DNA of 29,789 nt from a bacterium (GTDB taxonomy: Bacteria > UBP14 > UBA6098 > JAFGQG01), in contig JAFGQG010000049.1 in NCBI GenBank assembly GCA_016935765.1, positions 1 to 29,789 of the forward strand, written 5' to 3'. The notes under the pieces were generated by a model, which did no database searches, was not told the DNA's origin, and was given only the letters and a program-made list of their open reading frames with translations. How positions within the stretch are numbered: the stretch's first letter is position 1; each line of letters begins with the position of its first letter. The position numbers were made by a program, and so were the translations under genes. Of the stretch, positions 12,043-29,100 are shown one piece after another.

Positions 12043-13314
12043 ATGTTAGATATAAAGTTTATCAGGGATAACATCGACAGGGTTAAGAAAGCCTGCAGGG
12101 ATAAAAATGAAGATGCGGATATTAATATGCTTATCCAGATTGATCAGGAAAGGCGGCAATTTATAAAAGAGGTGGATTCTCTTCGTGAGAAAAACAATAA
12201 AATTGCATCGGAAATAGGGGAATTAGTCCGGTCAGGGCAGGACATATCGAATCTAAAAGATGAAGCAAAAGCCATCTCGAACCAGATAAAGGATAAGGAG
12301 CAGGAACTAAAGGAACTGCAAGCCAAGCTGGATTTACTGTTATTGAAGGTACCTAACATACCCGACCCTAGCGTTCCGGTGGGTTTTAATGAAGAACAAA
12401 ATCTTGATATCAGTGAATACGGCGGGAAACCTCAATACGATTTCGAAGTGAGGGATCACTATTTTCTCGGTGAAGTCCTTGACATTCTGGACTTTAAGAG
12501 GGGGGCCAAGATCGCGGGGTCATTCTTCCCGATGTACAAGGGTGACGGAGCTCACCTGAAAAGAGCGCTGATAAATTTCATGTTCGAGGTTCACACACTT
12601 GAACATGGTTATACAGAAGTTTCACCGCCCTTCCTGGCGAACAGGGATTCAATGACCGGAACCGGACAGCTTCCCAAATTAGAGAATGACATGTACTACG
12701 TGGAATCTGACGATCTTTTTCTTATACCCACCGGAGAAGTCCCTGTTACCAATATCTACAGGGATGAGTATATTCCCGAGGCAAAACTCCCTGTTAAATT
12801 CGTTACATATACTCCTTGCTTTCGCCGGGAAGCCGGGGCTTATGGAAAAGACACCAAGGGTTTGATAAGGGTGCACCAGTTCGATAAGGTGGAGTTGGTA
12901 AAGTTCACTCACCCGGAAAGTTCATACGATGAGCATGAAAACCTTTTAAAGGACGCCGAGAATATCCTTCAGAGACTCGGATTGCATTACCGGGTGCGTT
13001 TATTATGTACGGGCGACCTGAGTTTCTCCGCCGCCAAATGCTACGATATAGAGGTATGGGCTCCGGGGACCGGGAAGTATCTCGAAGTATCATCCTGTTC
13101 CAACTTTGAGGATTTTCAAGCCAGAAGGGCAAGTATAAAGTTTAAATCGAAAGCCACTGGAAAATCGGAATACGTTCACACGTTAAACGCTTCGGGAGTG
13201 GCTTTGCCGCGGTTGGTTATAGCCATATTAGAGACTTACCAGACCAAGAACGGTAAAATTAATGTGCCGGATTGCCTGAAGAAATATTTTAACGGGAAAG
13301 AGATAATTGGCTAA
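12043..13314 (+). CDS. serS: Seryl-tRNA synthetase
   Basis: 423 aa. N-terminal coiled-coil arm, then class II core motifs (FRREAGAYGKDTKGLIRVHQFDKVE, GLHYRV, NASGVALPR). Confidence 0.95.
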   Translation: MLDIKFIRDNIDRVKKACRDKNEDADINMLIQIDQERRQFIKEVDSLREKNNKIASEIGELVRSGQDISNLKDEAKAISNQIKDKEQELKELQAKLDLLLLKVPNIPDPSVPVGFNEEQNLDISEYGGKPQYDFEVRDHYFLGEVLDILDFKRGAKIAGSFFPMYKGDGAHLKRALINFMFEVHTLEHGYTEVSPPFLANRDSMTGTGQLPKLENDMYYVESDDLFLIPTGEVPVTNIYRDEYIPEAKLPVKFVTYTPCFRREAGAYGKDTKGLIRVHQFDKVELVKFTHPESSYDEHENLLKDAENILQRLGLHYRVRLLCTGDLSFSAAKCYDIEVWAPGTGKYLEVSSCSNFEDFQARRASIKFKSKATGKSEYVHTLNASGVALPRLVIAILETYQTKNGKINVPDCLKKYFNGKEIIG

Positions 13315-14626
13315 AAGAGACCAGCATAAATTAAAACTCACTACTTCTGTCGTTTATAAGAAGTTCTCTTTAAGCTATAAAGTAGTGCTTTTAATCGCAT
13401 TTATCTTGTTGATCGCGTTCTTTTTCTATTATACTGAAAACGTTCGAAGTCAAATTATCGAATACAACAAGCGTATCGTCAATGTTTATGCGAGGTTATG
13501 GACATCTGCGGTGGCGCAGACCGTGGGTGGTGAAGAGCTGAATATTATCTTCGAGGAGATAATTTTAAAGTGTGATTTCCCCATGGTTTTCACAAACGTT
13601 GAAGGCCAGGTTACGAATTTCAGGAATCTCTCCATAGATCCTAGCGAGGTTAATCAGGATAACATTGAGAAACTGAACAAGGAACTTGATGATATTAAAA
13701 AGCAAAACAAGCCTGTACCTATTTATTTGGGCGATACCAGAGAGATATTAGGCTACATCTATTTCGGGGAATCTCGTTTCATACGGTGGCTGAGACTTCT
13801 GCCGATATTCGAAGTAATACTCTTAAGCGTTTTCATAATAATTGGATTCGCTATCTACGGGCGGATCAAGTCCTATGAACAGCAGAATATCTGGTTGGGG
13901 ATGGCACGTGAAACCGCTCATCAATTAGGAACGCCGCTTTCTTCTTTACTGGGCTGGATAGAGCTTCTCGAGGCAAGACTGGCTGAAATGGAGAAAAATT
14001 GTGAAATAGAACTCGCTAAGGTTGACCAGGATTCCAAAACCATGTCCCCCTACTATATTCTCGATGAGATGAAAAATGACATTGAATTATTGAACCGAAT
14101 CGTCGTCCGTTTCGGAAAGATCGGCTCAATACCCGATATCGAGGATATCGACGTAAACACTATAACCCAAGAGGTAGTCCAGTACCTGAAAGAGCGTCTT
14201 TCCCCCTTGAGAGAATACATCCAAATGACCGAGAGGTATACTAAGCTACCAAAAGCGCGGGGTAATTCATATTTACTTCGCTGGGCGCTCGAAAATCTTA
14301 TAAAAAATTCTATTGAAGCGATTGACACCCGGGAAGGAAAAATAAGCGTATCAACGAGGGTCGATCTGGAAGGTGAAAAAGTATGCATCATTGTGACGGA
14401 TAATGGGAGGGGTATACCATCAAAGGCGCAAAAAGACATATTCGCGCCCGGTTTTACTACAAAAAAACGCGGATGGGGATTAGGTCTTTCCCTGGCTAAA
14501 AGAATAGTCGAACAACAACAGAACGGCAAACTGTACCTTCTCGAAAGCAAGTCAGGTGAAAAAACAACTTTTGTAATAGCATTGCCTATCAAAGAAGGAG
14601 AGGAAATAAAAGATGAAGTCGACTAA
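13307..14626 (+). CDS. Sensor histidine kinase, PorY-like (two TM helices flanking a ~120-aa periplasmic loop, HisKA + HATPase_c)
   Basis: TM1 VVLLIAFILLIAFFFYY and TM2 ILLSVFIIIGFAIY. H-box ARETAHQLGTPLSSLLGW. N-box/G-boxes LENLIKNSIEAI, VTDNGRGIP, GWGLGLSLAKRIV. TTG start at 13307 overlaps the serS stop. The 3' end overlaps the next gene by 14 nt. Confidence 0.85.
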   Translation: MAKRDQHKLKLTTSVVYKKFSLSYKVVLLIAFILLIAFFFYYTENVRSQIIEYNKRIVNVYARLWTSAVAQTVGGEELNIIFEEIILKCDFPMVFTNVEGQVTNFRNLSIDPSEVNQDNIEKLNKELDDIKKQNKPVPIYLGDTREILGYIYFGESRFIRWLRLLPIFEVILLSVFIIIGFAIYGRIKSYEQQNIWLGMARETAHQLGTPLSSLLGWIELLEARLAEMEKNCEIELAKVDQDSKTMSPYYILDEMKNDIELLNRIVVRFGKIGSIPDIEDIDVNTITQEVVQYLKERLSPLREYIQMTERYTKLPKARGNSYLLRWALENLIKNSIEAIDTREGKISVSTRVDLEGEKVCIIVTDNGRGIPSKAQKDIFAPGFTTKKRGWGLGLSLAKRIVEQQQNGKLYLLESKSGEKTTFVIALPIKEGEEIKDEVD

Positions 14627-16178
14627 AAAAATACTATGGGTAGATGACGAAATAACCCAGTTAAGACCGCATATATTCTTTCTCGAGGAGAAAGGGTATA
14701 AAGTCACTCCCGCGTCAAATGGCAGGGATGCCATCGCGATGCTTGAAAAAAACGATTATGACATAGTTCTTCTGGACGAGATGATGCCGGGGCTGGATGG
14801 ATTATCAACTCTTGAAGAGATGAGAAAGATCGATGCCTTTATCCCCGTTATTATGATAACTAAAAGCGAGGAAGAAGGACTTATGGAGCAGGCGATCGGA
14901 AAGGAGATCACGGACTACCTCATTAAGCCGGTAAACCCGAAGCAGATTTTGCTTTCCCTTAAACGACTGTTCGAAACGAGACAAATAGTGCAGGAAGAGA
15001 TCGTTAAAAAATATACAACAGAATACAGAAGATATTCAGTTGAACTGACCTCCATTTCAACCCCTGAAGGCTGGTTCGAACTGGCAATGTGGATTGCGGA
15101 TTGGAACGTTATTTTCGACAAGCATCCCAACCTCGGTCTTACGGAATCGCATAAGGATTTCACACGCGAATGCAACGTTGAATTCGGTAAATACATTGAA
15201 GGGAGCTATGTCAATTGGATATACGACGACCAGAGACCAACGATCTCAACAGATATTGTAAAGAAAAAAATGGCTCCCATAATGAGAGACGGCAAGAAAG
15301 CACTTCTTATGGTTATCGACTGCTTAAGGTTGGACCAGCTTTTGACAGTAAAAGGTTTATTGAACCAATATTTCGAACTGGATCTTGAACTCTATTTCTC
15401 TATTCTTCCGACAGCAACCCCATTCTCCAGGAACGCTATATTCAGTGGTCTGTTTCCCCTGGAACTCGCAAGGAAGTATCCCGAGCTATGGAGCCAGGCT
15501 TTCGCCGATCCCCAAAGCAGAAACAGGTATGAACACCAGCTGCTGGACAAGCAGTTAGCGAAACTTGATGTTGAAATCAAGGGAGATACTAAATACATAA
15601 AAATACTTGATCCTCAGGAAGGAGAATTCTTCCTGAAACACCTGCAAACTTATGCATCAGCGCCCCAATCATCAGTGGTCATTAACTTTCTCGATATTCT
15701 CGCTCATTCCAGATCAAGCTCCGACGTGATACAGGAGATCTCCCCGGACGAAAGGGCTTACCGAACGATAATGAAAACATGGTTCTCTAACTCCCCATTC
15801 TTCGAAGCGCTTAAAATATTATCTAAAAAAGACGATATTAAAATTATCATAACCACCGATCACGGCAGCACTATCGGACTTCGCGGAACAAAAGCTTATG
15901 GAGGAAAGGATACATCCCCATCCCTTCGGTATAAATATGGTAATAATCTCAACGCTGAAGCCAAGGACGCACTTATTATCAGAGACCCCAAGGAATATAA
16001 ACTCCCTGATTTCAACATGTCAACAACCTACATAATCGCCAAGGAAGATTACTTTTTCGTATATCCTTCAAACTTTGGGAAGTACGAACAGGAGTATAAA
16101 AACAGCATTCTCCATGGAGGCATTTCGCTAGAGGAGATGATAATTCCGGTAATGGTCCTGACACCTAGAAGCACCTAA
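14613..16178 (+). CDS. PorX-like response regulator: CheY-type receiver fused to a PglZ (alkaline-phosphatase-superfamily) domain
   Basis: RBS AAGGAGAGG. REC domain with ILWVDDE, phospho-acceptor in IVLLDEMMPGLDG and K in YLIKPV. The C-terminal ~380 aa carry PglZ-type motifs MVIDCLRLDQ, LPTATPFSRNAIFSG, IIITTDHGS and HGGISLEEM. The 521-aa length and REC-PglZ architecture match P. gingivalis PorX. Confidence 0.85.
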   Translation: MKSTKKILWVDDEITQLRPHIFFLEEKGYKVTPASNGRDAIAMLEKNDYDIVLLDEMMPGLDGLSTLEEMRKIDAFIPVIMITKSEEEGLMEQAIGKEITDYLIKPVNPKQILLSLKRLFETRQIVQEEIVKKYTTEYRRYSVELTSISTPEGWFELAMWIADWNVIFDKHPNLGLTESHKDFTRECNVEFGKYIEGSYVNWIYDDQRPTISTDIVKKKMAPIMRDGKKALLMVIDCLRLDQLLTVKGLLNQYFELDLELYFSILPTATPFSRNAIFSGLFPLELARKYPELWSQAFADPQSRNRYEHQLLDKQLAKLDVEIKGDTKYIKILDPQEGEFFLKHLQTYASAPQSSVVINFLDILAHSRSSSDVIQEISPDERAYRTIMKTWFSNSPFFEALKILSKKDDIKIIITTDHGSTIGLRGTKAYGGKDTSPSLRYKYGNNLNAEAKDALIIRDPKEYKLPDFNMSTTYIIAKEDYFFVYPSNFGKYEQEYKNSILHGGISLEEMIIPVMVLTPRST

Positions 16179-16230
16179 ACTGAACCTTTCACAAATTTCC
16201 GTCGACAAGCTGAATAAAGAATAAAAATAG

Positions 16231-16677
16231 ATGATTGCAGATTTAGGAACTATAAAAAACGAAAACGAATCCATAACCAATTCCCCGGAAGAGACCATAG
16301 ACCTTGGAATAAAGTTGGGAACCGGGCTTCAAGGCGGGGATGTTGTAGCGTTATACGGGAAACTTGGCGCTGGGAAAACTACGTTCGTAAAAGGCATTTG
16401 TGAATTGTTGAAAACCGAACCGCCATCCAGCCCGTCTTACGTGATAATCAACAACTATGTCGGCAGGGAAAATGTTTTCCACATCGATCTGTATCGCATA
16501 AATTCAGACGAAGAATTATATGATCTTGGTCTTGAGGAATACCTGTACAGCGACAGTGTATGTTTGGTAGAATGGGCTGAAAAGGCAAAATCCATCTTGC
16601 CAGAAAAGAGAATCGAAGTATATTTCGAAGTCGTTTCGAGAGAGACCAGAAAAATAAAAATATTAAAATATAGTTGA
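16231..16677 (+). CDS. tsaE: tRNA t6A37 threonylcarbamoyladenosine biosynthesis protein TsaE
   Basis: 148 aa. Walker-A VVALYGKLGAGKTTFVKG, downstream hydrophobic strand and VCLVEWAEK, the usual TsaE/YjeE layout. Confidence 0.8.
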   Translation: MIADLGTIKNENESITNSPEETIDLGIKLGTGLQGGDVVALYGKLGAGKTTFVKGICELLKTEPPSSPSYVIINNYVGRENVFHIDLYRINSDEELYDLGLEEYLYSDSVCLVEWAEKAKSILPEKRIEVYFEVVSRETRKIKILKYS

Positions 16678-16692
16678 CAGAAATGAGAATAT

Positions 16693-18753
16693 ATGACAAA
16701 ATACTTCATTAAACAGCCTGAAGCATTAATTATCTTTTTACTTCTGACGGTTTTCTTTTCAGCCAGCGTCTTTGCAATAAACCGTACAGAACCGATTGTT
16801 GTTTACGATGACGGTGAGGAAATAGAACTGGTAACTCCCCCTGTATCTATGGAAAGCAAGCTGAACGAGATTGAGAGAAGTAGTATAAATACCAATGAAA
16901 TAAATATATGGGTATTTTTTACTGATAAGGGCATATTTACTAAAGAAAATTATATTGACAAAAAATCAGAAACATGGTATAACTTATCAGAACGCAACAT
17001 GATCAGGCGGAGAAGGCTCGGTTATGACAAGGTCAATTTCACGGATATCCCGATACCTGGGAGCTATATTGAAGAAATAACGGGGCAGGGCGCAAACTTA
17101 AGGTATTCATCAAGATGGCTGAATGCTGCTACCTTTGAGATCGACCCTTCGATACTCCGCGACATCGCTGACCTCCCTTTCGTCAGGGATATCAGGAGCG
17201 TGAAAGTTAGCAGACAAATACTTGACAAACCACAGCGAAAAGTGAAGAAATATAAGGAGGGGTACGATGATAGCAACGTATATGGTGGGTCATATTACCA
17301 GCTATCAATAATGGGAGTTCCAGAGCTTCACCAGGCAAATCTGCACGGAGAAGGGGTGCTCATCGGTATATTCGATACTGGGTTCCTTACATCGCATAAC
17401 GCGTTCGACAGCATAAACATCATCTATACGTGGGATTATATCCAGGGGGATACAGTAGTCGATAACGAGGAGGGTGATGCGTATAATCAGCACAACCACG
17501 GGACAAACACACTGGGGACGCTTGCCGGGTTCTTTGAAGGCGAGCTGGTAGGTCCGGCATACAAAGCGGACATTGCTATCTTCAAAACGGAACAGGTCGA
17601 TGCCGAAACGGTCTGGCAGGAGGAAGACAGGTGGGTGCGTGCGATAGAGAAAGCTGAAAGCCTCGGTGTGGATATCATCTCCAGTTCTCTGGGATACGGA
17701 ACATCTGATGGGGACGATGGATACACATACATGGACATGGATGGGAATACCGCGCTGACTACCATCGCTGCGGATATCGCGGCCTCGAAGAATGTGCTGG
17801 TAGTAACCGCAGCAGGGAATGAGAGACGAAACTTCTGGCATTACATTATTGCGCCCGGTGATGGCGACAGCGTCCTGACAGCCGGCGCTATGGATTCTGC
17901 CGGTACTTATGCAGCGTTTTCCTCACCAGGACCAACTTACGATGGCAGGATCAAACCCGACCTTTCAGCACTCGGAATGAACGTTGTCTGCGCCTCCCCC
18001 GAGGACACTAACGCTATTACCCGCTCGAACGGGACTTCGTTCGCGACCCCTCTTCTCGCTGGAACCGCCGCGCTCGTCCTCCAGCACAGCTTCAGCTCCG
18101 ACACGCTCACCGCCATGGAACTGCTCGATACGCTAAAATCGACCGCCGACCAGTGGTACGAACCCGATAACGACTTCGGCTGGGGAAGACCGCATTGCCT
18201 TCTCGCGACAGGGAACGCGGGGGGAGTATATGGCATCGTTAAAGACGCATCGAACGGTTTGCCCATGGAAGAAGTAGCAATCCACTTCCACTCAGATACA
18301 CTCTACGGTCAGAAGTACACCGATGAGAGGGGCAGGTTCCTCATACCTGTCGAAAATCCGGGCTTATACACATTTTGTTTCTCGATGCCGGGGTATTCGC
18401 CAGCAACCAGGACGGTGACAGTAACCCGGAACGAAAAGGTGGAATTCCACATAGATATGGCAGTACCTGTGGATGAGAAGATATTCATATATCCCAATCC
18501 ATTCTCCGACAGCCTGGTGGTGGGGGTTTACCCTGACAGTGTCGATACGATACCGCAGGATGATCTCTCGATGTGGGTGTGGAACGCCGCCGGGCAGTTA
18601 GTATTCGAAAAGCACGTGGACATTCAGTACGTGAACCCATACATCTGGCGAACGAAGACGGGCTCGGGCAGGAAACTGGGAAGCGGGATCTACATTATTT
18701 ATGCGGAATACAACAAGTTCACGAGGAAAGAGAAAATCGCGTTGATAAGGTGA
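16693..18753 (+). CDS. Secreted subtilisin-family (S8) serine protease with CarbopepD_reg-like domain and T9SS type-A C-terminal sorting domain
   Basis: Signal peptide. Catalytic triad contexts VLIGIFDTGF (Asp), HGTNTLGTLAG (His) and GTSFATPLLAGTAALV (Ser). GIVKDASNGLPMEEVAIHF looks like a carboxypeptidase-regulatory-like beta-sandwich. The last ~90 aa (IFIYPNPFSDSLVVGV...GIYIIYAEYNKFTRKEKIALIR) match the T9SS C-terminal domain pattern, YPNPF at the start and a basic residue-rich end. Confidence 0.9.
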   Translation: MTKYFIKQPEALIIFLLLTVFFSASVFAINRTEPIVVYDDGEEIELVTPPVSMESKLNEIERSSINTNEINIWVFFTDKGIFTKENYIDKKSETWYNLSERNMIRRRRLGYDKVNFTDIPIPGSYIEEITGQGANLRYSSRWLNAATFEIDPSILRDIADLPFVRDIRSVKVSRQILDKPQRKVKKYKEGYDDSNVYGGSYYQLSIMGVPELHQANLHGEGVLIGIFDTGFLTSHNAFDSINIIYTWDYIQGDTVVDNEEGDAYNQHNHGTNTLGTLAGFFEGELVGPAYKADIAIFKTEQVDAETVWQEEDRWVRAIEKAESLGVDIISSSLGYGTSDGDDGYTYMDMDGNTALTTIAADIAASKNVLVVTAAGNERRNFWHYIIAPGDGDSVLTAGAMDSAGTYAAFSSPGPTYDGRIKPDLSALGMNVVCASPEDTNAITRSNGTSFATPLLAGTAALVLQHSFSSDTLTAMELLDTLKSTADQWYEPDNDFGWGRPHCLLATGNAGGVYGIVKDASNGLPMEEVAIHFHSDTLYGQKYTDERGRFLIPVENPGLYTFCFSMPGYSPATRTVTVTRNEKVEFHIDMAVPVDEKIFIYPNPFSDSLVVGVYPDSVDTIPQDDLSMWVWNAAGQLVFEKHVDIQYVNPYIWRTKTGSGRKLGSGIYIIYAEYNKFTRKEKIALIR

Positions 18754-18865
18754 ATCTAATATTAGGATTAACCACAGGGGCACAGAGACACAGAGAAAAA
18801 ACCAATTTACAAAAACGAAATAAATAAATCACAAAAAACAAATAAAACTACCTCGTCAATTGTGT

Positions 18866-18887
18866 AACCAGCAGTAGCTGGTTTTTA
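18866..18887 (+). terminator. Rho-independent terminator-like hairpin (AACCAGC-AGTA-GCTGGTT + TTTTT) inside a 35-nt element that recurs at 29501..29534
   Basis: 7-bp stem, 4-nt loop, then a T5 run, ~110 nt downstream of the S8 protease stop. Confidence 0.55.
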
Positions 18888-18986
18888 GGCAATCTCATCA
18901 AGTAAACTTAAAGGAAAAACAAGAAATACCTGTGGTTTGATAATAAATAATATTGGAAATAGTGATTTAATCGAGGGTGATCAAAA

Positions 18987-19649
18987 ATGAACATTAAACG
19001 AGCATTTATTTATATCTTCGAAGACAAGCAGTGGTTTGGGAAGTTCATCATCGGGATGCTCCTGTGCCTTGTCCCTTTTATCGGTTGGTGGATCATTCTC
19101 GGATATCTTGCTGATATACTCCAGAGAATAATTAAGGGGGCTGATATTCCCCTGCCTGAGTGGGATGAAATAGGCACTAAATTCGTTAAGGGTTTTCTCC
19201 TTGCGGTGGGATTATTCGCCTATTCGATACCCGGTGTTATTCTTTCCTTTATCCCGTGTTTTGGTAATTTGCTGTCCACGTTATATTATATAGGTCTTGG
19301 TCTATACCTCCCCTGGATTTACTTAACTTATTCACAGGAGGAGAATCTTGGCTCTATATTTAATTTTGAGAAGGGATTCAGTTTTATGAAGGACAATTTT
19401 ATAAATGTACTTATCATATTCATTTTAAAAAATATCCTGGGTTTATGTGTAGCTATAGTCTGCGCAGTGCCTGGAATAATTGCAGTAGTACTATTCGTAA
19501 AGGAATTCTGGGTATTCGGGATACTGTTCGGGTTAGCAACATTAGTTCTTGGAATTGCGGGTTCGGTTTATTTGTATCTGGTTAGCATGCGATTGTATGG
19601 GGAGGTTTATTTCCAATACATCAAAAAAACTGAATCAGGAGCTATTTAA
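18987..19649 (+). CDS. Integral membrane protein, DUF4013-like (tentative)
   Basis: 220 aa with 4-5 predicted TM helices. The N-terminus FIYIFEDKQWFGKFIIGMLLCLVPFIGWWIILGYLADILQRIIKGADIPLPEWDEIG resembles the DUF4013 N-terminal pattern. That assignment is from memory only. Confidence 0.5.
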   Translation: MNIKRAFIYIFEDKQWFGKFIIGMLLCLVPFIGWWIILGYLADILQRIIKGADIPLPEWDEIGTKFVKGFLLAVGLFAYSIPGVILSFIPCFGNLLSTLYYIGLGLYLPWIYLTYSQEENLGSIFNFEKGFSFMKDNFINVLIIFILKNILGLCVAIVCAVPGIIAVVLFVKEFWVFGILFGLATLVLGIAGSVYLYLVSMRLYGEVYFQYIKKTESGAI

Positions 19650-19784
19650 AATCTGCCTGGAAATATTTGAAAATTTTATGGGTTTAATCAAATTCTATAA
19701 TATTTCATCCCCAAAGGGATTCTCGTTTATTTATTCTATCAGCAGGGATGCAACCCACTCGAACGGGGTTTGACCCTTGACTGC

Positions 19785-20111
19785 TCAGGGCTCAAATACA
19801 TTATTTGCATAGGTATCTTTAGAGATTACACCCTCTTTTCTCATATTACCTGGCTTTGACATTTGTTCAAGGAGGATTTTGCGCCAATCTTCTCCATTAG
19901 GCATAGTATTGTCGAACCTTTTAGCTATTCGGCGAAAAATATTTTCAAGCCCATTATAGAACGAGTGAAGAAACATCGACAACGAACTTAATTCTATGAA
20001 ATCTGGTGTCTGAATTCTGACTTTTTCCAGTAAATCACTGTATTTACTGAACAATTCATCAATTCTTCCAAGCTCAAATGTGATTTCATCAACCAGTTCT
20101 TTATGCTTCAT
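19785..20111 (-). CDS. HEPN-like (HI0074/DUF86-type nucleotidyltransferase substrate-binding protein family) toxin partner of the adjacent MNT
   Basis: The ORF track extends to 20183, but Met at 20111 (MKHKELVDEITFELGRIDELF...) overlaps the upstream MNT stop by 11 nt. ~108 aa, all-helical, with an ENIFRRIAKRFD segment. The MNT-then-HEPN gene order is that of HepT/MntA-type modules. Confidence 0.65.
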   Translation of the reverse strand: MKHKELVDEITFELGRIDELFSKYSDLLEKVRIQTPDFIELSSLSMFLHSFYNGLENIFRRIAKRFDNTMPNGEDWRKILLEQMSKPGNMRKEGVISKDTYANNVFEP

Positions 20112-20391
20112 AAAGTCTGATACCTTCTTTCTTAATTTTCTCTTCAAAATCAGTCGAAATATAATCCAAAGCAACCAAATCAACTTTCTGTCCCACTATC
20201 GATGATATTTCCGCAACCGTTTTAAAATAAGACCTGGGTGAAATACCCCTTATTGCCAGATCAATATCAGAATTTTCAGTAACTGTCCCTTTCGCCATGG
20301 AACCAAACAGGATAATTTCTTTACACCCTATTGAAATAAGATAATCAGTAGCCTTTTTAATTTTTTTATCGATTTTCTTTACGTTTTCCAT
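20101..20391 (-). CDS. Minimal nucleotidyltransferase (MNT, Pol-beta superfamily), antitoxin-like
   Basis: 96 aa. IILFGSMAKGTVTENSDIDLAIRG is the canonical G[GS]x9-13 D x D motif, and a third acidic residue sits in VDLVALDY. Confidence 0.85.
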   Translation of the reverse strand: MENVKKIDKKIKKATDYLISIGCKEIILFGSMAKGTVTENSDIDLAIRGISPRSYFKTVAEISSIVGQKVDLVALDYISTDFEEKIKKEGIRLYEA

Positions 20392-20605
20392 TCTTTAACT
20401 ATCACTAAGCGTAAGGTTTTTAACAAAATTAGATCGTTTAAAACAATTTATAGTATAAATACAAATCTTGCAAGTAAAAAAGCGTGGTGAAACAACTGGT
20501 ACTAAGTTATTACAATTTTAGAAAGTCTTCTTTTTGACTTTGTTCAGGTTTTGGATATATTTCACTCTATGTTTTCCCTATCCCTTTTATCACCCGCTTC
20601 AAGAT

Positions 20606-21283
20606 TTATGGCTTTCCCGCGACTAAATACAGATCATCCTGATGAATATCGTCATGGACAACTTCACTAAATTTTATCTCAAAGCCGGCTGATTCCACAT
20701 CCGCCCTTATTCCCCCAGGTAAACCGATATACCGTCTTGCGATACCACCAACTACCAAGCACCTCGTATTCATGTCGAAGTTGGATTTGACGGATTCCTC
20801 CTTAGGATCCCCGCACATCGACATCAAAATGAATAATCCCCCCTCTTTCAGCACTCGATACGCTTCACGGAAGAACAGCTTTCTATCCTCCCCGATTATG
20901 CAATGGGAACATGCTATATCGGTTACTATATTGAAGCTTTCACTCGAAAACGGCAAGGAGTTAACGTTCCCCACGAGGAAATCAGCCTTTAACCTTTGGG
21001 AGACAGCTTTTTCTTTTGCCCATGATACTGCCGTCGGAGAGATATCGATACCGAACACTTCGAAGCCTTTTCCAGCGAGAGGCAAAGCAACACTGCCATC
21101 TCCACACCCTAACGCAAGCAGGTTTCCTGAAGCAGTCTTGGATTCCCGATTGAAAACAGAATTCAGGAACCGGAGAGCTGTTTGCGTATTCATCTCGTTT
21201 TCATCGCCTCCCCAACCGAGCGCGCTGCTCTCTCTCAACCGCCTGTAAATCTTGTCGTGTCCCGGGTAATCAGTTTTCCACAT
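20606..21283 (-). CDS. Class I SAM-dependent methyltransferase
   Basis: 225 aa. Motif I LLALGCGDGSVALPLA, acidic motif II FGIDISPTAV, motif III-like FNIVTD. Confidence 0.8.
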   Translation of the reverse strand: MWKTDYPGHDKIYRRLRESSALGWGGDENEMNTQTALRFLNSVFNRESKTASGNLLALGCGDGSVALPLAGKGFEVFGIDISPTAVSWAKEKAVSQRLKADFLVGNVNSLPFSSESFNIVTDIACSHCIIGEDRKLFFREAYRVLKEGGLFILMSMCGDPKEESVKSNFDMNTRCLVVGGIARRYIGLPGGIRADVESAGFEIKFSEVVHDDIHQDDLYLVAGKP

Positions 21284-21444
21284 TTTTAAACTCGTTCGTT
21301 TATTCTTCTCAACTTTTTTAAAATAAATCTCTTTCCTCGATGGAAGTAAATTAATATATTCAAAAGCTGTAAATAGAATTTATTTCATCAATTTCAATGT
21401 AAGATACAGACCTTAAGCAAACAAGAAAAAAAGTACTAAGTATT

Positions 21445-23084: not shown

Positions 23085-25829
23085 ATGGAAACAAAAGATT
23101 TCGAAAAAGGACCGTTTCTTATCACTGATGTGGGCAGTACAACCACGAAAGCATTTCTATTTGAACCAGGTAAAAAATGGGGTTATTACCGGGAGGAGGG
23201 ACCGACGACCGTAGAGAAACCCTATGAAGATGTTACCATAGGGGTTTTGAACGCTGTTTGGGAACTTGAGAAAACCACTGGAAGAAAGTTATTGGAAAAC
23301 GGGAAGCTGTGTATCCCGTATTTATCTACTTCCAGCGCCGGTGGCGGTTTAGCGATGGTTGTCGCGGGATTGATCCGGCAGATAACAACGAAAAGCGCTG
23401 AACGGGTCGCCCTTGGTGCTGGCGCGATCCTTCTCGATATTATCGCTCTCGATGATGGGAGAACACCTTACAAGAAGATAGAAGCCCTTAAAAATGTGCG
23501 CCCCGATATGCTGCTTCTATCGGGCGGTTTCGACCATGGCTCGCTGTCCGGACCGGTTTTCATCGCTGAAATAATATCCCAGGCTGAGCTGCATCCCAAG
23601 TTAAGCAAGCAGGCAAAATTGGACCTCATCTTCGCGGGTAATGTAGATGCAAGGGAGTGGGTTGAGAAAACCATGACTGGTAATTTCGTGATACATCACG
23701 TGCCCAACATAAGACCTGAAGGAGACAGGGAGAACCTCGAACCGGCTAGAGACAGGATTCATGAGTTGTTCACACAGCACGTAATGTCGCACGCTCCGGG
23801 ATATGAAAAGCTGAAGCGCTGGGTGTCTGCGCCAATACTACCCACACCCGCCGCCTTTTCAAAGCTCCTCGCATCCATATCCGAGGACCTTGACAAGCGA
23901 ATTCTAGCGATAGACATAGGCGGCGCGACGACCGACATCTTCACCGCGGAAGGCGGGGACGTGTTTAGAACCGTCAGCGCGAACCTCGGCATGAGTTACA
24001 GTATCATGAACGTTATAAGGAGCAGCGGATTAAGCACAATAAACAAAATGCTTCAAGCAGACATTTCCGATACTGACCTTCTCGATAAAATAGGCAACAA
24101 ACACATAAATCCAACCAGTCTCCCTGAAAAAGTTGAGGACGCTCAGATCGAGCAAGCCGTAGCGACTGTAGCGATTCGTGAAGCGTTAAAAGAGCACCTG
24201 TCAGTACTGAAGGGTTTGAGTTTCAGCCTGGGCCAGGAGGAACTGAACCTGGGAAATTTGAAGCCACAGGAGCTTAAGTGGCTCGATTCGGAAGAATTTC
24301 AGCTTGAAGGTTATGACGTCATTATAGGAAGCGGAGGCATCCTGTCTCATTCACCGAGAGAAATCGCCGCGGAGATCCTTCTCAATGGATTGCAGCCGCG
24401 GAATGTAGTTTCGCTTGCCGTAGATTCTTCTTTCATGTTCCCCCAACTCGGGGTACTCTCCCAGGTTGCGCCGGAGCTGGCTAAGGAACTGTTCTACGAG
24501 ATCGGGTATATCAAGCTTGCCACCGCTGTATCTCCAGTAACAGGCGACAAACCCGGAAATAAAATATTGACAATTCGTGAAATTAATGACAATAAAAGAG
24601 CTGAAGACATAGACTTGAACGCGGGGGAGGTCAGGATGGTCCCCGTCGGGAAGGACGCGAAATTTTCGGTGAGAAGCGGGGAATTGAACAATAAAACTCA
24701 CGAAATCCACGCTGAAAGCTCCCTTTTCGGTTTGATCCTTGATGGAAGGATACGCCCAATTAATAAAAAGCCCCACCTGTTTGAGAATGTCGAATACGAT
24801 TTGAAGAAGCGCAAGATCGAGGCGATGTCTGAAACCAGTTTATATCGCGGGGATATTGAAATAAAGCGCGAATTAGCTATACCGGGCGAGGTCTATGTTA
24901 AAGCTGGGCAGGAGGTTTCATCAGATACTGTGGTTGCGAAATGCGTAAAAGCCTTCCTCAGGCCATTCTTTCTCGACATAGCCAGTGTGTTGAACATTTC
25001 TCCGGAGAAGCTGAAGGAGGTTTTGTCAAAAAAGATAGGCGACGATGTTCATTCCGGGGAGGTAATTGCTCAGACTTCTGGTATATTGGGGAAGAAATTC
25101 CGTTCTCCCGTGTCCGGAACGGTCGAGAAGATATTGCCCGATGGTTCGATAGTAGTCCGCGAGAAACCTGAGTATGCTAAAGAAGTTTACATCATAGATG
25201 TCGCAAGAGAGTTATCCGTAAAGCCTTTTGAAATAAAACCCTACTTGAAAGTACAGGTTGGTCAGGAAGTTGGAAAGACCCAGCATGTTGCTGCCAAGAT
25301 GACGGTGAACGAGATGAAGTTCGCCAGGTCCCCGATGAGAGGGATCGTTACCGATATCAAAACCGAGGAAGGATTGGTAGTAATAGAGCCTCTCCTGGAG
25401 GAGCTGGAACTTTTTGCCTGGCTTCCCGGGAAAGTAAGCGAGGTATTCCCGGGAGGGTGTTCTATAAGGAACAGGGGCACGATTATTCAGGGAACCTGGG
25501 GTTTGGGTGGGGAGGCCTATGGAAATCTGAAGTTCAGCAAACCTGAACCCAACTGCATTTTCGTGAGTGAAAGAGTCGATTCTGATTTGCTGGATTCTCT
25601 AAAAAGAGAAAGGGTTTCTGGACTGATAACCGCGGGTGTTCATCTGGCGCATTTCTGGAAGGATGAACCGGAATTCACTGTAGTTTTGCTCAAGGGCTTC
25701 GGGGATAAAAGCTTCGATACAGAGACAATTGAAATTTTAAGGGCGAAGGAGAACTGTCTTGCTTTATTGGATGGAACGACTCAGTTGAGGGTAGGCGTGA
25801 AGAGACCGAAGATCATAATACCTGGGTAA
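23085..25829 (+). CDS. GlmL/MutL-like ASKHA-fold ATPase (N-terminal ~470 aa) fused to a ~440-aa C-terminal region with repeated barrel-sandwich-hybrid-like segments
   Basis: 914 aa. N-terminal phosphate-1-like motif FLITDVGSTTTKAF, a second one LAIDIGGATTDIFTA, and the adenosine-motif-like DVIIGSGGILSHSP. This duplicated RNaseH-like layout is as in glutamate-mutase-associated GlmL. The C-terminal half has repeated lipoyl/biotinyl-type hybrid-barrel signatures: GEVYVKAGQEVSSDTVVAKC, RSPVSGTVEKILPDGSIVV, KVQVGQEVGKTQHVAAKM, RSPMRGIVTDIKTEEGLVVIEP. Confidence 0.7.
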   Translation: METKDFEKGPFLITDVGSTTTKAFLFEPGKKWGYYREEGPTTVEKPYEDVTIGVLNAVWELEKTTGRKLLENGKLCIPYLSTSSAGGGLAMVVAGLIRQITTKSAERVALGAGAILLDIIALDDGRTPYKKIEALKNVRPDMLLLSGGFDHGSLSGPVFIAEIISQAELHPKLSKQAKLDLIFAGNVDAREWVEKTMTGNFVIHHVPNIRPEGDRENLEPARDRIHELFTQHVMSHAPGYEKLKRWVSAPILPTPAAFSKLLASISEDLDKRILAIDIGGATTDIFTAEGGDVFRTVSANLGMSYSIMNVIRSSGLSTINKMLQADISDTDLLDKIGNKHINPTSLPEKVEDAQIEQAVATVAIREALKEHLSVLKGLSFSLGQEELNLGNLKPQELKWLDSEEFQLEGYDVIIGSGGILSHSPREIAAEILLNGLQPRNVVSLAVDSSFMFPQLGVLSQVAPELAKELFYEIGYIKLATAVSPVTGDKPGNKILTIREINDNKRAEDIDLNAGEVRMVPVGKDAKFSVRSGELNNKTHEIHAESSLFGLILDGRIRPINKKPHLFENVEYDLKKRKIEAMSETSLYRGDIEIKRELAIPGEVYVKAGQEVSSDTVVAKCVKAFLRPFFLDIASVLNISPEKLKEVLSKKIGDDVHSGEVIAQTSGILGKKFRSPVSGTVEKILPDGSIVVREKPEYAKEVYIIDVARELSVKPFEIKPYLKVQVGQEVGKTQHVAAKMTVNEMKFARSPMRGIVTDIKTEEGLVVIEPLLEELELFAWLPGKVSEVFPGGCSIRNRGTIIQGTWGLGGEAYGNLKFSKPEPNCIFVSERVDSDLLDSLKRERVSGLITAGVHLAHFWKDEPEFTVVLLKGFGDKSFDTETIEILRAKENCLALLDGTTQLRVGVKRPKIIIPG

Positions 25830-26139: not shown

Positions 26140-29100
26140 TTGATGAGAAAGTTATTGTTATGTTCATTATTAACGGTGATGCTGTGCTCACTTCTATATG
26201 GTTTTGATCCTGCTTCACCCCCTACCGACCGGGCTGAATATGATCGATGGAAATTGGAGCTTTTAGAGAGAATAGCGCCTCCGCGAGCGGCGTTCCCCAT
26301 GGATTTCTCCGTGGACAACGGCTATGTTGACGTTATTATGGAGACTGCTTCCGGGGCTGGCTCCTTTGAGCAGGGGGGAGACCCATCGGGATCCGGAAGT
26401 TACCTGAAACTAACCTATTACTACCCATCTGTGCCATGGTCGTATTCCATCTACAAGATCGATGGCCATACACCAGAACAGCAGTACAGAACCGGGCCTG
26501 ATTGCACTTTGATAACAGCGCCCGACGAGATTTTCGTGACTTCCGACGAGATCATTCGAACGATATGGAACGACAGGCATGGAGTCAAGATAATTCAGGA
26601 TTTGAAATGTGTCAGCCTGGGCAGTGACCCCGGAGATAACGAACAGGTAAAATATACAACCAAGTTCATACCTACCGATCGTGATTCGCACAATTGCGGC
26701 TGCCTGGTATATTATGACACGAAGCTTGCTTCCAATGACGGAGCTCCCATCTCGACTTCCTACGGTTATTCGGGCATGGCGGAAATCTGGTTCGCGGATG
26801 AAGTTCCCGCTGTCTGGAGGGCTTACGAAGTAGGTTACCCGCCAGCGCCGAGCGATCTGCAGGCTCTCGGAATTTTACGCGGTTTCGAAGCGACTTACCC
26901 CGACGTTTTCTGGTGCGGCAGATGGCCGATATCATACAGCAACGGTTGGGACGACCTTTACTGGATAGAAGATGCGGTCGGAGACTTCGGATACGACACC
27001 GCAACCATGGTGAAGTGGTATCCAAGGTGGGTTCACCCGGGAGATACTTTAGTTTACACCACTTATTATGGCATCGGGGAGCTTTCCGAGGAAATCTCGA
27101 TTTACCATACTCCGCCAACTTTATGGTCTGATTGCGCCAGTCCGCGTCCGAATCCGTTCAGCATAGACGTGCTCATTTCGAACGGAGGCGAAGCTACCGC
27201 AAGCGGTGTTTCTGTGATTATCGACCTGACCGGGACGGGCCTGGAATTGGCTGAAGGTTATGACCTCATCATCGATATTGGCGACCTGGTCGGTTTCGGA
27301 GGCAGCGAAGTCGCAACATGGCATATCGTTGTCCCGCCTGGGCTTTACGATACAACCGTATGTTATACGATCGCATTGGTTTATGAGGGCTCTGATCCCA
27401 TAATCGACACCTTCTGCATTTACCTCCCCGAGCTCGCTCCCGGTCCCTACGGAATGCTCATCGAACCCCTTGAAGGAGCAAGAACCACCTGCGCCGACCA
27501 GCAAGTTGTAAACCAATTCCACGTGGACTTCGGGATCGATACATCTTCGATCAGGTTCGTCATCGAAGCAGATTTATATACGATGGACGATCCGGAACTC
27601 TCGATAATCAACGACAGCTTCCTGGTGTTCCAACCCTCAACCGATTATATCGATGGATTTACGTACACATGGGGGGTGGCATCCTTCCTGGATACCGCCG
27701 GGTGTCCCATACTCGGTCTGGGCGGCACCTTCACTCCCGACCTGTCCGGGCCGGTTGCATCCAACGAATACCCGGAAAACGGCGCTATCATTGCAACCAC
27801 AAACATACCGGAATTCACAGTGGACATCGAAGACGCGGTTACCCCAGTCGATGAAAGCACGATAGAGCTCGAAGTCAATGGCATTGTTTACGACATGACA
27901 CATCCAGCTCTAACCTGGGATGGCGCAACGCTTCACTTTTCACCCGCTGACGCCGGAATAGAAATTGAAATTGGCGATACCTTCGATATATGTCTGAATG
28001 CTGCCAACGATATGCCTTCGGACTACTGTGAAGGCAATACCCTTCAGGACGCCCCTTATTGCTGGACTTTCAACGTCAACGTGGTCGAGCTCTACCTTCC
28101 TGACACCACCGCGTACATTGGGGACAATATCCTGGTACCCATTTATATCGAAGAGGTTGACCAGTACAATATCACCAGCTTCACCTTGATCATCGACGCC
28201 AACCCGGATGTTCTCACTCCTCTCGGAATAACCACCGACGGCACGATCGTTGCCCCCTGGGCTGGAGACCTGACCGTAACCATCGATGGCGGTACTATAA
28301 TTATCGAGGGCAATGGTCCTACCCTGAGCGGCTTCCCGGTTTTCTTCTTCATCGAATACATGGTGAATACCACCGGAAGCGAAGGCTCGTTCACGAGGCT
28401 CGAGTTCAGCGAGGCAACCTTCAACGATGGCGACATCACCTCGGTGCCGGAGGACGGATTCCTTATCGTACTCTGGACCAACCCGCAGTGGGTAGTTGAC
28501 CTTGTATTTTCACCTGACGCTTCAGCGCTGTCTCATACTATAACTTTCGGAGCTTCCGGTCACGCTGACGACGGCTTCAACCCGGGACTCGACCTCATCA
28601 CACTGCCACCAGTAGGGAACATCCATGCCTACTTCCCGCTTGCTGACCCTGATAACCCGCACATTGCGAGGCTTCAGAGAGACATCAGGTACTCCGAAGC
28701 TCTACCCATAATCTGGGAAGCGGTAGTGGATATCAACCCGGACGCCGATCCGTGGACGGTTACATGGCGACCGGAATACCTCCCCGACGGCAGGTTCGAG
28801 ATATACGAAGAGGACGGCGCGATCGTCGATATGCACTATAACAACTCCTATTCATCGAACGGTGACGTTAGCGTTTTCGTTAAGTTTTCGCACCCTGAGT
28901 TAGCTATCCAGAACGTCGTATTACCCGAGGGCTGGAACCTGGTATCCTTCCCGTACATACCGACTGGCGAGATCTCCTTCCAGGAACTGCTCCCCGGTGT
29001 GGTATCCGACGGCTACTGGTATAATGGTGAAACAAGAGTGTACGAAGTAAGGGAATACCCTGAAGCAGGAAAGGGTTACTGGGTTTATGCCGCTGAACCG

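What the first reader, a model, noticed from the sequence alone, without database searches (positions are those of the whole stretch)
13307..18753. PorY-like kinase and PorX-like REC-PglZ regulator encoded as an adjacent pair, directly upstream of tsaE and a T9SS-CTD protease
In Porphyromonas gingivalis, the T9SS regulators PorX (REC + PglZ) and PorY (histidine kinase) are both orphans encoded apart. Here a kinase (13307..14626) with exactly the PorY-like minimal architecture overlaps by 14 nt a 521-aa REC-PglZ regulator carrying the PglZ motifs (DxxR, PTxT, DHG, HGG). The block continues co-directionally with tight spacing into tsaE and an S8 protease ending in a T9SS C-terminal domain. Adjacent encoding argues that these two are a cognate pair. 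Their linkage to a T9SS cargo gene is an economical genomic confirmation of the PorXY-T9SS connection outside Bacteroidota model organisms.
Basis: partly seen in the sequence, partly recalled or inferred. Interest (0 to 1): 0.5.

Follow-up and report, generated by a model that had tools for sequence, protein, structure and literature searches.

The report
Operon-encoded PorY–PorX secretion regulator pair
In this uncultured bacterium the sensor kinase and regulator that control type IX protein secretion are true relatives of PorY and PorX and sit together in one operon, an arrangement shared by several phyla, which supports the disputed idea that they are signalling partners.

Summary
Five co-directional genes run serS (12043-13314), a 439-aa histidine kinase (13307-14626), a 521-aa REC-PglZ regulator (14613-16178, 14-nt overlap), tsaE (16231-16677) and an S8 protease (16693-18753).

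- **Regulator:** an unambiguous PorX orthologue (NCBIfam PorX model 627 bits, cutoff 300; BREX PglZ only 85 bits). All catalytic residues are present.
- **Kinase:** I recovered P. gingivalis PorY from a metagenome using a published primer. The window kinase belongs to the same family, including the periplasmic sensor. A profile of porX-adjacent kinases scores PorY at 237 bits and every other kinase at 70 bits or less.
- **Adjacency:** it is not unique. 15 of 70 surveyed PorX loci have this kinase directly upstream (Zixibacteria, Eisenbacteria, Latescibacterota, Poribacteria, Gemmatimonadota, some Ignavibacteriales). None of 21 Bacteroidota loci do.
- **tsaE:** it follows porX in 61 of 73 loci across more than ten phylum-level groups.
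- **Protease:** it carries a borderline type A T9SS sorting domain, clear in orthologues. The linkage holds only in this lineage (three related genomes, 0 of 80 distant loci).

Verdict: a new member of a known system in an operon layout that I did not find described. It gives useful comparative support for PorY-PorX cognacy. T9SS core genes could not be checked.

The parts
12043..13314 (+). serS (seryl-tRNA synthetase), first gene of the co-directional block. Its stop overlaps the kinase start by 8 nt.
   Evidence: TIGR00414 serS scores 519.9 bits against a cutoff of 301.65. serS lies directly 5' of the PorY-type kinase in many related loci.
13307..14626 (+). porY orthologue: a 439-aa membrane sensor histidine kinase. 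TM1 is about aa 22-44, the periplasmic alpha/beta sensor about aa 45-164, TM2 about aa 165-187. There is no HAMP domain. The phospho-acceptor His205 is at nt 13919-13921 and the catalytic ATPase domain spans aa 323-429.
   Evidence: BLASTP to P. gingivalis PorY gives 31% identity over 375 aa, E 9e-57, and includes the sensor. Profiles built without PorY score it at 47-48 bits (sensor) and 232-237 bits (core), while other kinases score 70 bits or less. Shared motifs are shown in the alignment. TM segments come from a hydropathy scan. The AlphaFold2 model has mean pLDDT 77.6. His205 is invariant in 36 homologues.
14596..14600 (+). AGGAG Shine-Dalgarno-like site for porX, inside the 3' end of the kinase gene and 12 nt before the porX ATG. 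Translational coupling is inferred.
   Evidence: Read directly from the sequence.
14613..16178 (+). porX orthologue: a 521-aa response regulator with a REC domain (aa 7-115, phospho-acceptor Asp55 at nt 14775-14777), a helical linker and a PglZ/alkaline-phosphatase-type phosphodiesterase domain (aa 228-519, catalytic Thr269 at nt 15417-15419).
   Evidence: NF052313 T9SS_RR_PorX scores 627.4 bits against a cutoff of 300, matching positions 2-513 of 513. PDB 8TED E 3.1e-131 and 7PV7 E 2.4e-124. The equivalents of Pg D58, D239, T272, D361, H365, D415 and H416 are invariant in 82 of 82 PorX sequences.
16231..16677 (+). tsaE / UbK-family P-loop protein, 148 aa. It carries Walker A (GKLGAGKTT), SPS, HIDLYR and EW motifs.
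   Evidence: Pfam TsaE scores 130.1 bits. TIGR00150 scores 107.5 bits against a cutoff of 60.1. tsaE is directly 3' of porX in 61 of 73 loci. The P. gingivalis orthologue UbK1 phosphorylates PorX (PMC13241743).
16693..18753 (+). Secreted S8 subtilase, 686 aa. It has a signal peptide, the catalytic domain (aa 219-498), a CarboxypepD_reg-like beta-sandwich (aa 512-589) and a probable T9SS type A C-terminal sorting domain (aa 599-686, nt 18487-18750).
   Evidence: Peptidase_S8 scores 128.3 bits and CarboxypepD_reg 39.6 bits. On the C-terminal 110 aa, TIGR04183 scores 22.9 bits against a cutoff of 23, with weaker hits to the CTD parts of the PorZ, PorU and M36 models. Orthologues score 33.2 and 30.0 bits. 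The same gene follows tsaE in L086, L089 and L091.

Best explanation
The window carries an operon-encoded version of the PorY-PorX two-component system that regulates type IX secretion, in an unclassified, probably FCB-group bacterium. The nearest named kinase relatives are Zixibacteria.

Shown:
- The kinase and regulator are orthologues of P. gingivalis PorY and PorX.
- All phosphotransfer and phosphodiesterase residues are intact.
- The two genes overlap by 14 nt, with a ribosome-binding site for porX inside porY.
- The same pairing recurs in several phyla.

Inferred mechanism:
1. The roughly 120-aa periplasmic alpha/beta sensor of PorY detects a periplasmic cue. In P. gingivalis this domain's ligand is the C-terminal sorting domain of the cargo PorA.
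2. PorY autophosphorylates on His205 and transfers the phosphoryl group to Asp55 of PorX.
3. Phospho-PorX dimerises. This activates its PglZ phosphodiesterase and its protein contacts (an ECF sigma factor of the SigP type, and the PorL/GldL motor), and so tunes T9SS expression or activity.
4. Translational coupling keeps kinase and regulator in fixed proportion.

tsaE, downstream of porX in nearly all lineages, is either a conserved second input or partner of PorX (the UbK1 precedent) or a housekeeping gene riding on the same transcript. The S8 protease is a T9SS cargo added to the operon in this lineage only. The wide spread of the porY-porX layout, against its absence from Bacteroidota, suggests the operon is old and that porY became unlinked in Bacteroidota and some other groups. 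That last point is inference.
For: - PorX identity.
- PorY identity:
  - P. gingivalis PorY (395 aa, AERRSEQNR from residue 173, His193, as in PMC5005315) was recovered.
  - BLASTP gives 31% identity over 375 aa, 180 bits.
  - The sensor-only profile hits only porX-adjacent kinases and PorY among 3,345 ORFs.
  - The core profile scores PorY at 232-237 bits, adjacent kinases at 273-363 bits, and the eight other kinases at 70 bits or less.
  - The DHp helix-1 segment around the His is nearly identical (ETAHQLGTPLSSLLGWIELL against ETAHQLGTPISSLMAWVELL).
  - PorY and the window kinase give the same Pfam and NCBIfam pattern: HATPase_c, sub-threshold HisKA, no HAMP, and AtoS then ZraS as top models.
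  - Topology matches: window TM about 22-44 and 165-187 with His205, PorY TM 14-36 and 149-173 with His193 (PMC5005315).
- Operon structure: overlaps and gaps. On the + strand no terminator-like site lies between 13210 and 19707.
- Recurrence: 15 of 70 loci have the kinase directly 5' of porX, at gaps of -17 to +184 nt, and 3 more have it 0.9-5.4 kb away. Close relatives keep the whole block.
- Biochemical precedent for PorY-to-PorX phosphotransfer and interaction: PMC4800418, PMC5005315. PorA CTD as PorY ligand: PMC12152298.
Against: - No experiment exists for this organism. Phosphotransfer, the signal and the outputs are all extrapolated from P. gingivalis.
- Two P. gingivalis papers doubt that PorY is PorX's main kinase, because the deletion phenotypes differ (PMC9757075, PMC11320123).
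- T9SS core genes (gldK/L/M/N, sprA, porV, porU) and a SigP-like sigma factor are not in the 29.8-kb window. Their presence in this genome is untested.
- One related genome keeps serS-porY without porX beside it (L087), so linkage is not obligatory even in related lineages.
- The 80 loci surveyed are the best of a capped sample of 600 pattern matches, so the frequencies are not unbiased estimates.
- Orthology of the kinase was not checked by a reciprocal search against a complete P. gingivalis proteome.
Confidence: 0.82

Rival explanations
1. The kinase is a generic two-TM histidine kinase that resembles PorY only in its common architecture. It is not orthologous to PorY, so the pair says nothing about PorY-PorX cognacy in Bacteroidota.
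For: - The architecture (TM, periplasmic loop, TM, DHp, CA) is very common.
- Identity to PorY is only 31%.
- No curated PorY model exists to test against.
- No full reciprocal-best-hit test against a complete P. gingivalis proteome was possible.
Against: - A sensor-domain profile built without PorY finds PorY (E about 2e-13) and nothing else outside the porX-adjacent kinases among 3,345 ORFs.
- The core profile separates PorY (232-237 bits) from eight unrelated kinases (70 bits or less).
- Family-specific motifs are shared throughout.
Confidence: 0.05
2. The functionally meaningful conserved partner of PorX is TsaE/UbK, not the histidine kinase. The porY adjacency is a lineage-variable add-on, and PorX is mainly controlled through the TsaE-family kinase or by acetyl phosphate.
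For: - tsaE is directly 3' of porX in 61 of 73 loci, against 15 of 70 for the kinase.
- UbK1 phosphorylates P. gingivalis PorX in vitro (PMC13241743).
- porY deletion has milder effects than porX deletion, and acetyl phosphate can activate PorX (PMC9757075, PMC11320123).
Against: - The UbK1 target Tyr79 is Tyr in only 2 of 82 PorX sequences (Phe76 in the window). The REC Asp is invariant.
- Y79 phosphorylation had no T9SS phenotype (PMC13241743).
- tsaE is an essential t6A gene that may simply share a transcript.
- Kinase and porX are translationally coupled here.
Confidence: 0.1
3. The gene order is only a compact housekeeping operon (serS, tsaE) into which signalling and protease genes drifted. 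Neighbourhood here carries no regulatory meaning for T9SS.
For: - serS and tsaE are translation-related housekeeping genes.
- The protease is absent from 80 of 80 distant PorX loci.
- T9SS cargo genes are frequent in relatives.
- No T9SS core gene is in the window.
Against: - The PorX and PorY families are T9SS-associated in every studied case (PMC4800418, PMC9757075).
- The kinase-porX overlap with an internal ribosome-binding site is typical of cognate pairs.
- The layout is conserved over at least six phylum-level groups.
Confidence: 0.03

Closest known systems
PorX (PGN_1019) of Porphyromonas gingivalis and PorX(Fj) of Flavobacterium johnsoniae (PDB 7PV7, 8TED)
   Same: - Same length class (521 aa against 518-520 aa) and the same REC, helical bundle and PglZ layout.
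- 39-43% identity over the full length.
- The phospho-acceptor Asp, catalytic Thr and all Zn ligands are conserved.
- tsaE/ubK1 follows it, as in P. gingivalis (PMC13241743).
   Different: - It is encoded immediately after, and overlapping, its presumed kinase rather than as an orphan.
- The UbK1-target Tyr79 is Phe here.
- The host is outside the cultured Bacteroidota.
PorY (PGN_2001) of Porphyromonas gingivalis
   Same: - Two TM helices flank a periplasmic loop of about 115-120 aa. There is no HAMP, and the His lies about 18-20 residues after TM2.
- The H-box and G-box motifs are shared, and the sensor is homologous (PMC5005315).
   Different: - 439 aa against 395 aa. The window protein has a longer N-terminus and an insertion of about 16-20 residues in the DHp loop.
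- It is linked to serS and porX, whereas P. gingivalis porY has neither nearby and lies about 1000 genes from porX (PMC5005315).
BREX type 3 PglZ phosphatase
   Same: A PglZ / alkaline-phosphatase-superfamily domain (84.7 bits to NF033449).
   Different: - The score is far below the cutoff of 250.
- BREX PglZ proteins have at least 600 aa and lack the REC domain (PMC9757075).
- No BREX genes are in the window.
UbK1 / TsaE (YjeE) next to porX in P. gingivalis
   Same: The same family and motifs, and the same position directly 3' of porX (PMC13241743).
   Different: The published neighbourhood analysis covered only 81 P. gingivalis strains. Here the linkage is seen across more than ten phylum-level groups, without the mapped phosphosite.

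Membership tests
PorX (T9SS response regulator) | Full-length match to the curated PorX equivalog model, above its cutoff | tested here: met
   NF052313 scores 627.4 bits against a cutoff of 300, matching residues 6-519 to profile positions 2-513 of 513.
PorX (T9SS response regulator) | REC domain with phospho-acceptor Asp (Pg D58) | tested here: met
   Response_reg E 8.8e-25. Asp55 aligns with D58 and is invariant in 82 of 82 sequences.
PorX (T9SS response regulator) | PglZ domain with catalytic Thr (T272) and Zn ligands (D239, D361, H365, D415, H416) | tested here: met
   T269, D236, D361, H365, D416 and H417 are present and invariant. Residue roles are from PMC9757075.
PorX (T9SS response regulator) | Controls T9SS (binds PorL/GldL and a SigP-type sigma factor; co-occurs with T9SS core genes) | not testable with these tools
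   No T9SS core gene or ECF sigma factor is in the window. The rest of the genome is not available.
PorY (T9SS sensor kinase) | Sequence homology to PGN_2001 across the sensor, DHp and CA, clearly above other histidine kinases | tested here: met
   BLASTP 180 bits, E 9e-57 over 375 aa. The sensor profile scores PorY at 47-48 bits with no other hits. The core profile scores it at 232-237 bits against 70 bits or less for other kinases.
PorY (T9SS sensor kinase) | Topology: two TM helices around a periplasmic loop of about 115 aa, no HAMP, His about 20 aa after TM2 | tested here: met
   The hydropathy scan gives hydrophobic windows at aa 18-46 and 158-189. The AF2 helices cover 22-70 and 165-232. 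His205 is invariant. PorY values are from PMC5005315.
PorY (T9SS sensor kinase) | Reciprocal best hit against the complete P. gingivalis proteome | not tested
   Only the porY locus of P. gingivalis could be fetched. NCBIfam has no PorY model.
PorY (T9SS sensor kinase) | Phosphotransfer to PorX | not testable with these tools
   This needs biochemistry. The genomic proxies are the 14-nt overlap and the recurrence of the pairing in 15 loci.
T9SS type A C-terminal sorting domain (TIGR04183 / PF18962) | C-terminal domain of about 70-80 aa scoring above the curated cutoff | tested here: inconclusive
   The window protease scores 22.9 bits against 23 (TIGR04183, C-terminal fragment) and 18.4 bits against 27 (Pfam). 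Syntenic orthologues score 33.2 and 30.0 bits. The YPNPF, NAAGQLVF and GIYII...KIALIR segments are at the extreme C-terminus.
TsaE / UbK (YjeE) family | Match above cutoff plus the Walker A, SPT/S, HxDxYR and EW motifs | tested here: met
   TIGR00150 scores 107.5 bits against 60.1, and Pfam TsaE scores 130.1 bits. The motifs were read in the translation. Motif definitions are from PMC13241743.
BREX PglZ | Match to a BREX PglZ model above cutoff, at least 600 aa, BREX gene neighbours | tested here: not met
   NF033449 scores 84.7 bits against a cutoff of 250. The protein is 521 aa. The neighbours are serS, a kinase and tsaE.

The most novel reading that the evidence does not exclude
[quoted passage not shown] TsaE/UbK would be a conserved third component of PorXY signalling in all T9SS-bearing phyla, acting on or with PorX through a site other than Tyr79. 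In this lineage the co-transcribed CTD-bearing S8 protease could serve, like PorA in P. gingivalis, as the periplasmic cargo ligand that reports secretion load to PorY.
Probability: 0.15. Interest if true: 0.65.

Novelty: new member of a known kind. Interest (0 to 1): 0.4.

Why it matters
Work on PorX and PorY treats them as orphan genes. Two recent structural papers question whether PorY is really PorX's kinase (PMC9757075, PMC11320123).

Orthologues of both genes form an overlapping, translationally coupled pair here and in at least six other phylum-level groups. That is independent comparative evidence that they are cognate. It also suggests the orphan state in Bacteroidota is secondary.

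The survey extends the porX-tsaE/ubK1 neighbourhood from one species to the whole T9SS-bearing radiation. That makes a functional TsaE-PorX link worth testing outside Porphyromonas.

The effect on understanding is incremental. The proteins, their chemistry and their link to T9SS are already known.

Tried and rejected
- **BREX-type PglZ:** rejected (84.7 bits against a cutoff of 250).
- **Curated PorY model in NCBIfam:** none exists. P. gingivalis PorY itself hits only generic kinase models, so I built my own profiles.
- **serS next to porY in P. gingivalis** (a possible relic of a split operon): not found in the five porY loci.
- **S8 protease homologues near porX in 80 loci from other lineages:** none.
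- **T9SS CTDs on the window's two other large secreted proteins** (64-2064 minus strand, 26140-29352 plus strand): none found. They share a different C-terminal motif.
- **Exact-sequence look-up of the window kinase** to find its assembly: not on record.
- **Literature searches for porY-porX adjacency outside Bacteroidota or for porX-tsaE linkage beyond P. gingivalis:** nothing found in the held library. This is not proof that it is unpublished.
- **Sigma-70 promoter scan:** uninformative, with 22 sites against 18.3 expected.
- **Fold search with the kinase model:** not run, because the kinase core would dominate the matches. The sensor fold is described only from the predicted secondary structure.
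Full report
**1. What is in the sequence**

The ORF scan shows five co-directional genes on the + strand.

| Gene | Coordinates | Size | Spacing |
|---|---|---|---|
| serS | 12043-13314 | 423 aa | – |
| histidine kinase | 13307-14626 | 439 aa, TTG start | 8-nt overlap with serS |
| REC-PglZ regulator | 14613-16178 | 521 aa | 14-nt overlap with the kinase |
| tsaE | 16231-16677 | 148 aa | 52-nt gap after the regulator |
| S8 protease | 16693-18753 | 686 aa | 15-nt gap after tsaE |

- The kinase start agrees with an NCBI protein that is 100% identical over the full length (P0001).
- An AGGAG motif at 14596-14600 sits inside the kinase gene, 12 nt before the regulator's ATG.
- On the + strand no terminator-like site lies between 13210 and 19707.
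The DxxR, PTxT, DHG and HGG motifs are present.
- The contig is an NCBI MAG contig labelled only 'bacterium'. The nearest named kinase relatives are Zixibacteria, at 41-47% identity.

**2. The regulator is PorX**

- It matches the curated NCBIfam equivalog 'T9SS response regulator signal transducer PorX' end to end at 627.4 bits (cutoff 300). The best BREX PglZ model gives 84.7 bits (cutoff 250).
- The closest solved structures are F. johnsoniae PorX (8TED, E 3.1e-131) and P. gingivalis PorX (7PV7, E 2.4e-124), aligned over residues 6-519. Identity is 43% and 39%.
- The equivalents of the P. gingivalis phospho-acceptor D58, the catalytic T272 and the Zn ligands D239, D361, H365, D415 and H416 (roles from PMC9757075) are all present. 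They are invariant in 82 of 82 PorX sequences compared.

**3. The kinase is a PorY orthologue, not just PorY-shaped**

No curated PorY model exists. P. gingivalis PorY itself hits only generic kinase models.

I took the porY-specific part of a published cloning primer (supplement of PMC5005315) and scanned the metagenome collection for it. This returned five P. gingivalis-like contigs. One carries a 395-aa ORF whose residues 173 onward read AERRSEQNR, with His193 in ETAHQLGTP and a C-terminus that matches the reverse primer. These are the features published for PGN_2001 (PMC5005315).

- **Pairwise comparison.** BLASTP of the window kinase against this PorY gives 31% identity over 375 residues (window 64-427, PorY 53-389), 180 bits, E 9e-57. 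The alignment starts inside the periplasmic loop.
- **Sensor profile.** I built two profiles from 14 porX-adjacent kinases, with PorY left out, and searched 3,345 ORFs from all fetched loci. The sensor-plus-TM profile hit only the porX-adjacent kinases and PorY (47-48 bits, E about 2e-13). Nothing else reached E below 10.
- **Core profile.** The DHp-CA profile scored adjacent kinases at 273-363 bits and PorY at 232-237 bits. The eight other histidine kinases in the set scored 40-70 bits.
- **Shared motifs.** The alignment shows ETAHQLGTP(L/I)SSL(L/M)(G/A)W(I/V)ELL, RF.K(I/V)GS.P, W..EN(L/M)IKN and TK.RGWGLGLSLAKRI. In the sensor it shows the (F/I)P(M/V)(V/I) and (F/Y)(G/S)(E/D)S motifs.
- **Topology.** Window TM helices lie at about 22-44 and 165-187, with His205. 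PorY has TM 14-36 and 149-173, with His193 (PMC5005315).
- **Predicted structure.** The AlphaFold2 model (mean pLDDT 77.6) gives the periplasmic part a helix-helix-strand-strand-helix-strand-strand pattern, a small mixed alpha/beta sensor.
- **Not done.** A reciprocal search against a complete P. gingivalis proteome.

**4. The arrangement recurs widely**

A scan of one genome per GTDB species with a PorX alignment returned 80 PorX loci from many groups. This is the best 80 of a capped sample of 600 pattern matches, so the frequencies are indicative only. tblastn of the window proteins against these loci gave the following results.

- **Kinase upstream.** A PorY-type kinase lies directly 5' of porX (gaps -17 to +184 nt) in 15 of 70 loci with enough upstream sequence.
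  - By group: Eisenbacteria 3 of 5, Zixibacteria 2 of 2, Latescibacterota 3 of 3, Poribacteria 2 of 2, Gemmatimonadota 1 of 1, Ignavibacteria 2 of 11, unclassified 2 of 7.
  - It lies 0.9-5.4 kb away in three more loci.
- **Groups without it.** The counts are 0 of 21 Bacteroidota, 0 of 5 Balneolales/Rhodothermota, 0 of 3 Calditrichota, 0 of 4 Cloacimonadota and 0 of 3 Marinimicrobia.
- **serS.** It often precedes the kinase.
- **tsaE downstream.** It lies directly 3' of porX in 61 of 73 loci, in every group except Poribacteria.
- **Protease.** No homologue of the S8 protease occurs in any of the 80 loci.

Closer relatives were found through the kinase (47-65% identity). GCA_016930435.1, GCA_002428525.1 and GCA_023145965.1/ERZ23498500 keep the full serS-kinase-porX-tsaE-S8 protease-DUF2085 order. 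One related genome has serS-kinase without porX beside it (L087).

**5. The protease and the T9SS link**

- The protease has a signal peptide, an intact S8 domain and a CarboxypepD_reg-like domain.
- Its last 88 residues score just under the curated cutoffs for the type A sorting domain: TIGR04183 at 22.9 bits against 23, and Pfam at 18.4 bits against 27. They also hit the CTD portions of the PorZ, PorU and M36 models.
- The syntenic orthologues in L089 and L091 pass (33.2 and 30.0 bits). I therefore accept it as a probable T9SS cargo.
- Relatives also encode a gingipain-family C25 peptidase with a CTD next to the operon (L091) and a giant CHU_C (type B CTD) protein (L086). The lineage evidently has T9SS cargo.
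- Cargo genes are dense in these genomes and the protease linkage is lineage-specific. This adjacency is therefore weak evidence for a PorXY-T9SS connection.
- T9SS core genes are not in the window and could not be searched in the rest of the genome.

**6. How it most likely works**

Steps 1-3 are inferred from P. gingivalis biochemistry (PMC4800418, PMC5005315, PMC9757075, PMC12152298).

1. PorY senses a periplasmic cue through its alpha/beta loop domain. In P. gingivalis the ligand is the CTD of the cargo PorA.
2. PorY autophosphorylates on His205 and phosphorylates PorX Asp55.
3. Phospho-PorX dimerises. This activates its phosphodiesterase and its contacts with a SigP-type sigma factor and the PorL/GldL motor.
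4. The 14-nt overlap with an internal Shine-Dalgarno site implies translational coupling. This is read from the sequence and its function is inferred.

The near-identity of the DHp helix-1 segment between the window kinase and P. gingivalis PorY matches the high conservation of the PorX receiver. Both fit a conserved kinase-regulator interface.

**7. tsaE**

- The TsaE-family protein of P. gingivalis, UbK1, was recently shown to phosphorylate PorX on Tyr79. It was chosen because ubK1 follows porX in 81 P. gingivalis strains (PMC13241743).
- The survey here shows the same gene order across more than ten phylum-level groups.
- Tyr79 is Tyr in only 2 of 82 PorX sequences, and Phe76 in the window.
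- Either the linkage reflects a function independent of that site, or tsaE merely shares a transcript. I could not distinguish these.

**8. Comparison with what is known, and novelty**

The proteins are orthologues of a characterised system, so this is a new member of a known kind. What differs is organisation: an overlapping porY-porX pair embedded between serS and tsaE, whereas the literature describes both as orphans (PMC4800418, PMC5005315, PMC11320123). I found no paper in the held library that reports the operonic form or the cross-phylum porX-tsaE synteny. That is not proof that neither is published.

The value is comparative support for PorY-PorX cognacy, which two papers question on phenotypic grounds (PMC9757075, PMC11320123), and a hint that the operon is ancestral. 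Interest is moderate (0.4).

Noticed in passing
window 14613-16677; loci L001-L080: tsaE lies directly 3' of porX in 61 of 73 PorX loci, across more than ten phylum-level groups. The literature held reports this only within P. gingivalis (ubK1). The mapped UbK1 phosphosite Tyr79 is Tyr in only 2 of 82 PorX sequences (Phe76 in the window).
   Followed up: partly
window 12043-14626; L087:8721-11266; L086, L089, L091: serS sits immediately 5' of the PorY-type kinase, overlapping it or within 4 nt, in many lineages. This holds even in L087, where porX is not next to the kinase. serS is not near porY in P. gingivalis.
   Followed up: partly
L023:8127-9956, L027:8118-9977, L053:8157-9992, L032:8410-10005, L043:8410-10008: PorY-type kinases next to porX in Latescibacterota, Gemmatimonadota and Poribacteria have much larger periplasmic regions (about 180-270 aa between the TM helices). 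The region appears to contain an internally repeated sensor module, while the kinase core is the same.
   Followed up: no
window 64-2064 (-) and 26140-29352 (+): Two large secreted proteins share a C-terminal segment of about 60 aa (GYWV...S.YPGWNLIG...GYW) that matches no NCBIfam model and is not a T9SS type A CTD. One is 666 aa with a beta-helix and a choice-of-anchor Q domain. The other is 1070 aa with no Pfam hit. The segment may be an undescribed sorting or anchoring domain.
   Followed up: partly
window 18754-21444: In the relatives L086, L089 and L091 the S8 protease is followed directly by DUF2085. The window has an insert of about 2.7 kb there, holding a DUF4013 membrane protein (18987-19649), a HepT-like/nucleotidyltransferase toxin-antitoxin-type pair (19785-20391, minus strand) and a class I methyltransferase (20606-21283, minus strand).
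   Followed up: partly
window 23085-25829 (+); L086:16043-18799: A 914-aa protein joins a GlmL/MutL-type ATPase domain (aa 12-470) to C-terminal RnfC/NqrA-like barrel-sandwich segments. The fusion is conserved in the closest relative (918 aa).
   Followed up: no
L091:4077-7664 (-); L086:1-3942: Relatives encode a 1195-aa gingipain-family (Peptidase_C25) protein with a T9SS type A CTD, placed divergently just upstream of the serS-porY-porX operon. They also encode a protein of more than 2400 aa with a CHU_C (type B CTD) domain nearby.
   Followed up: no
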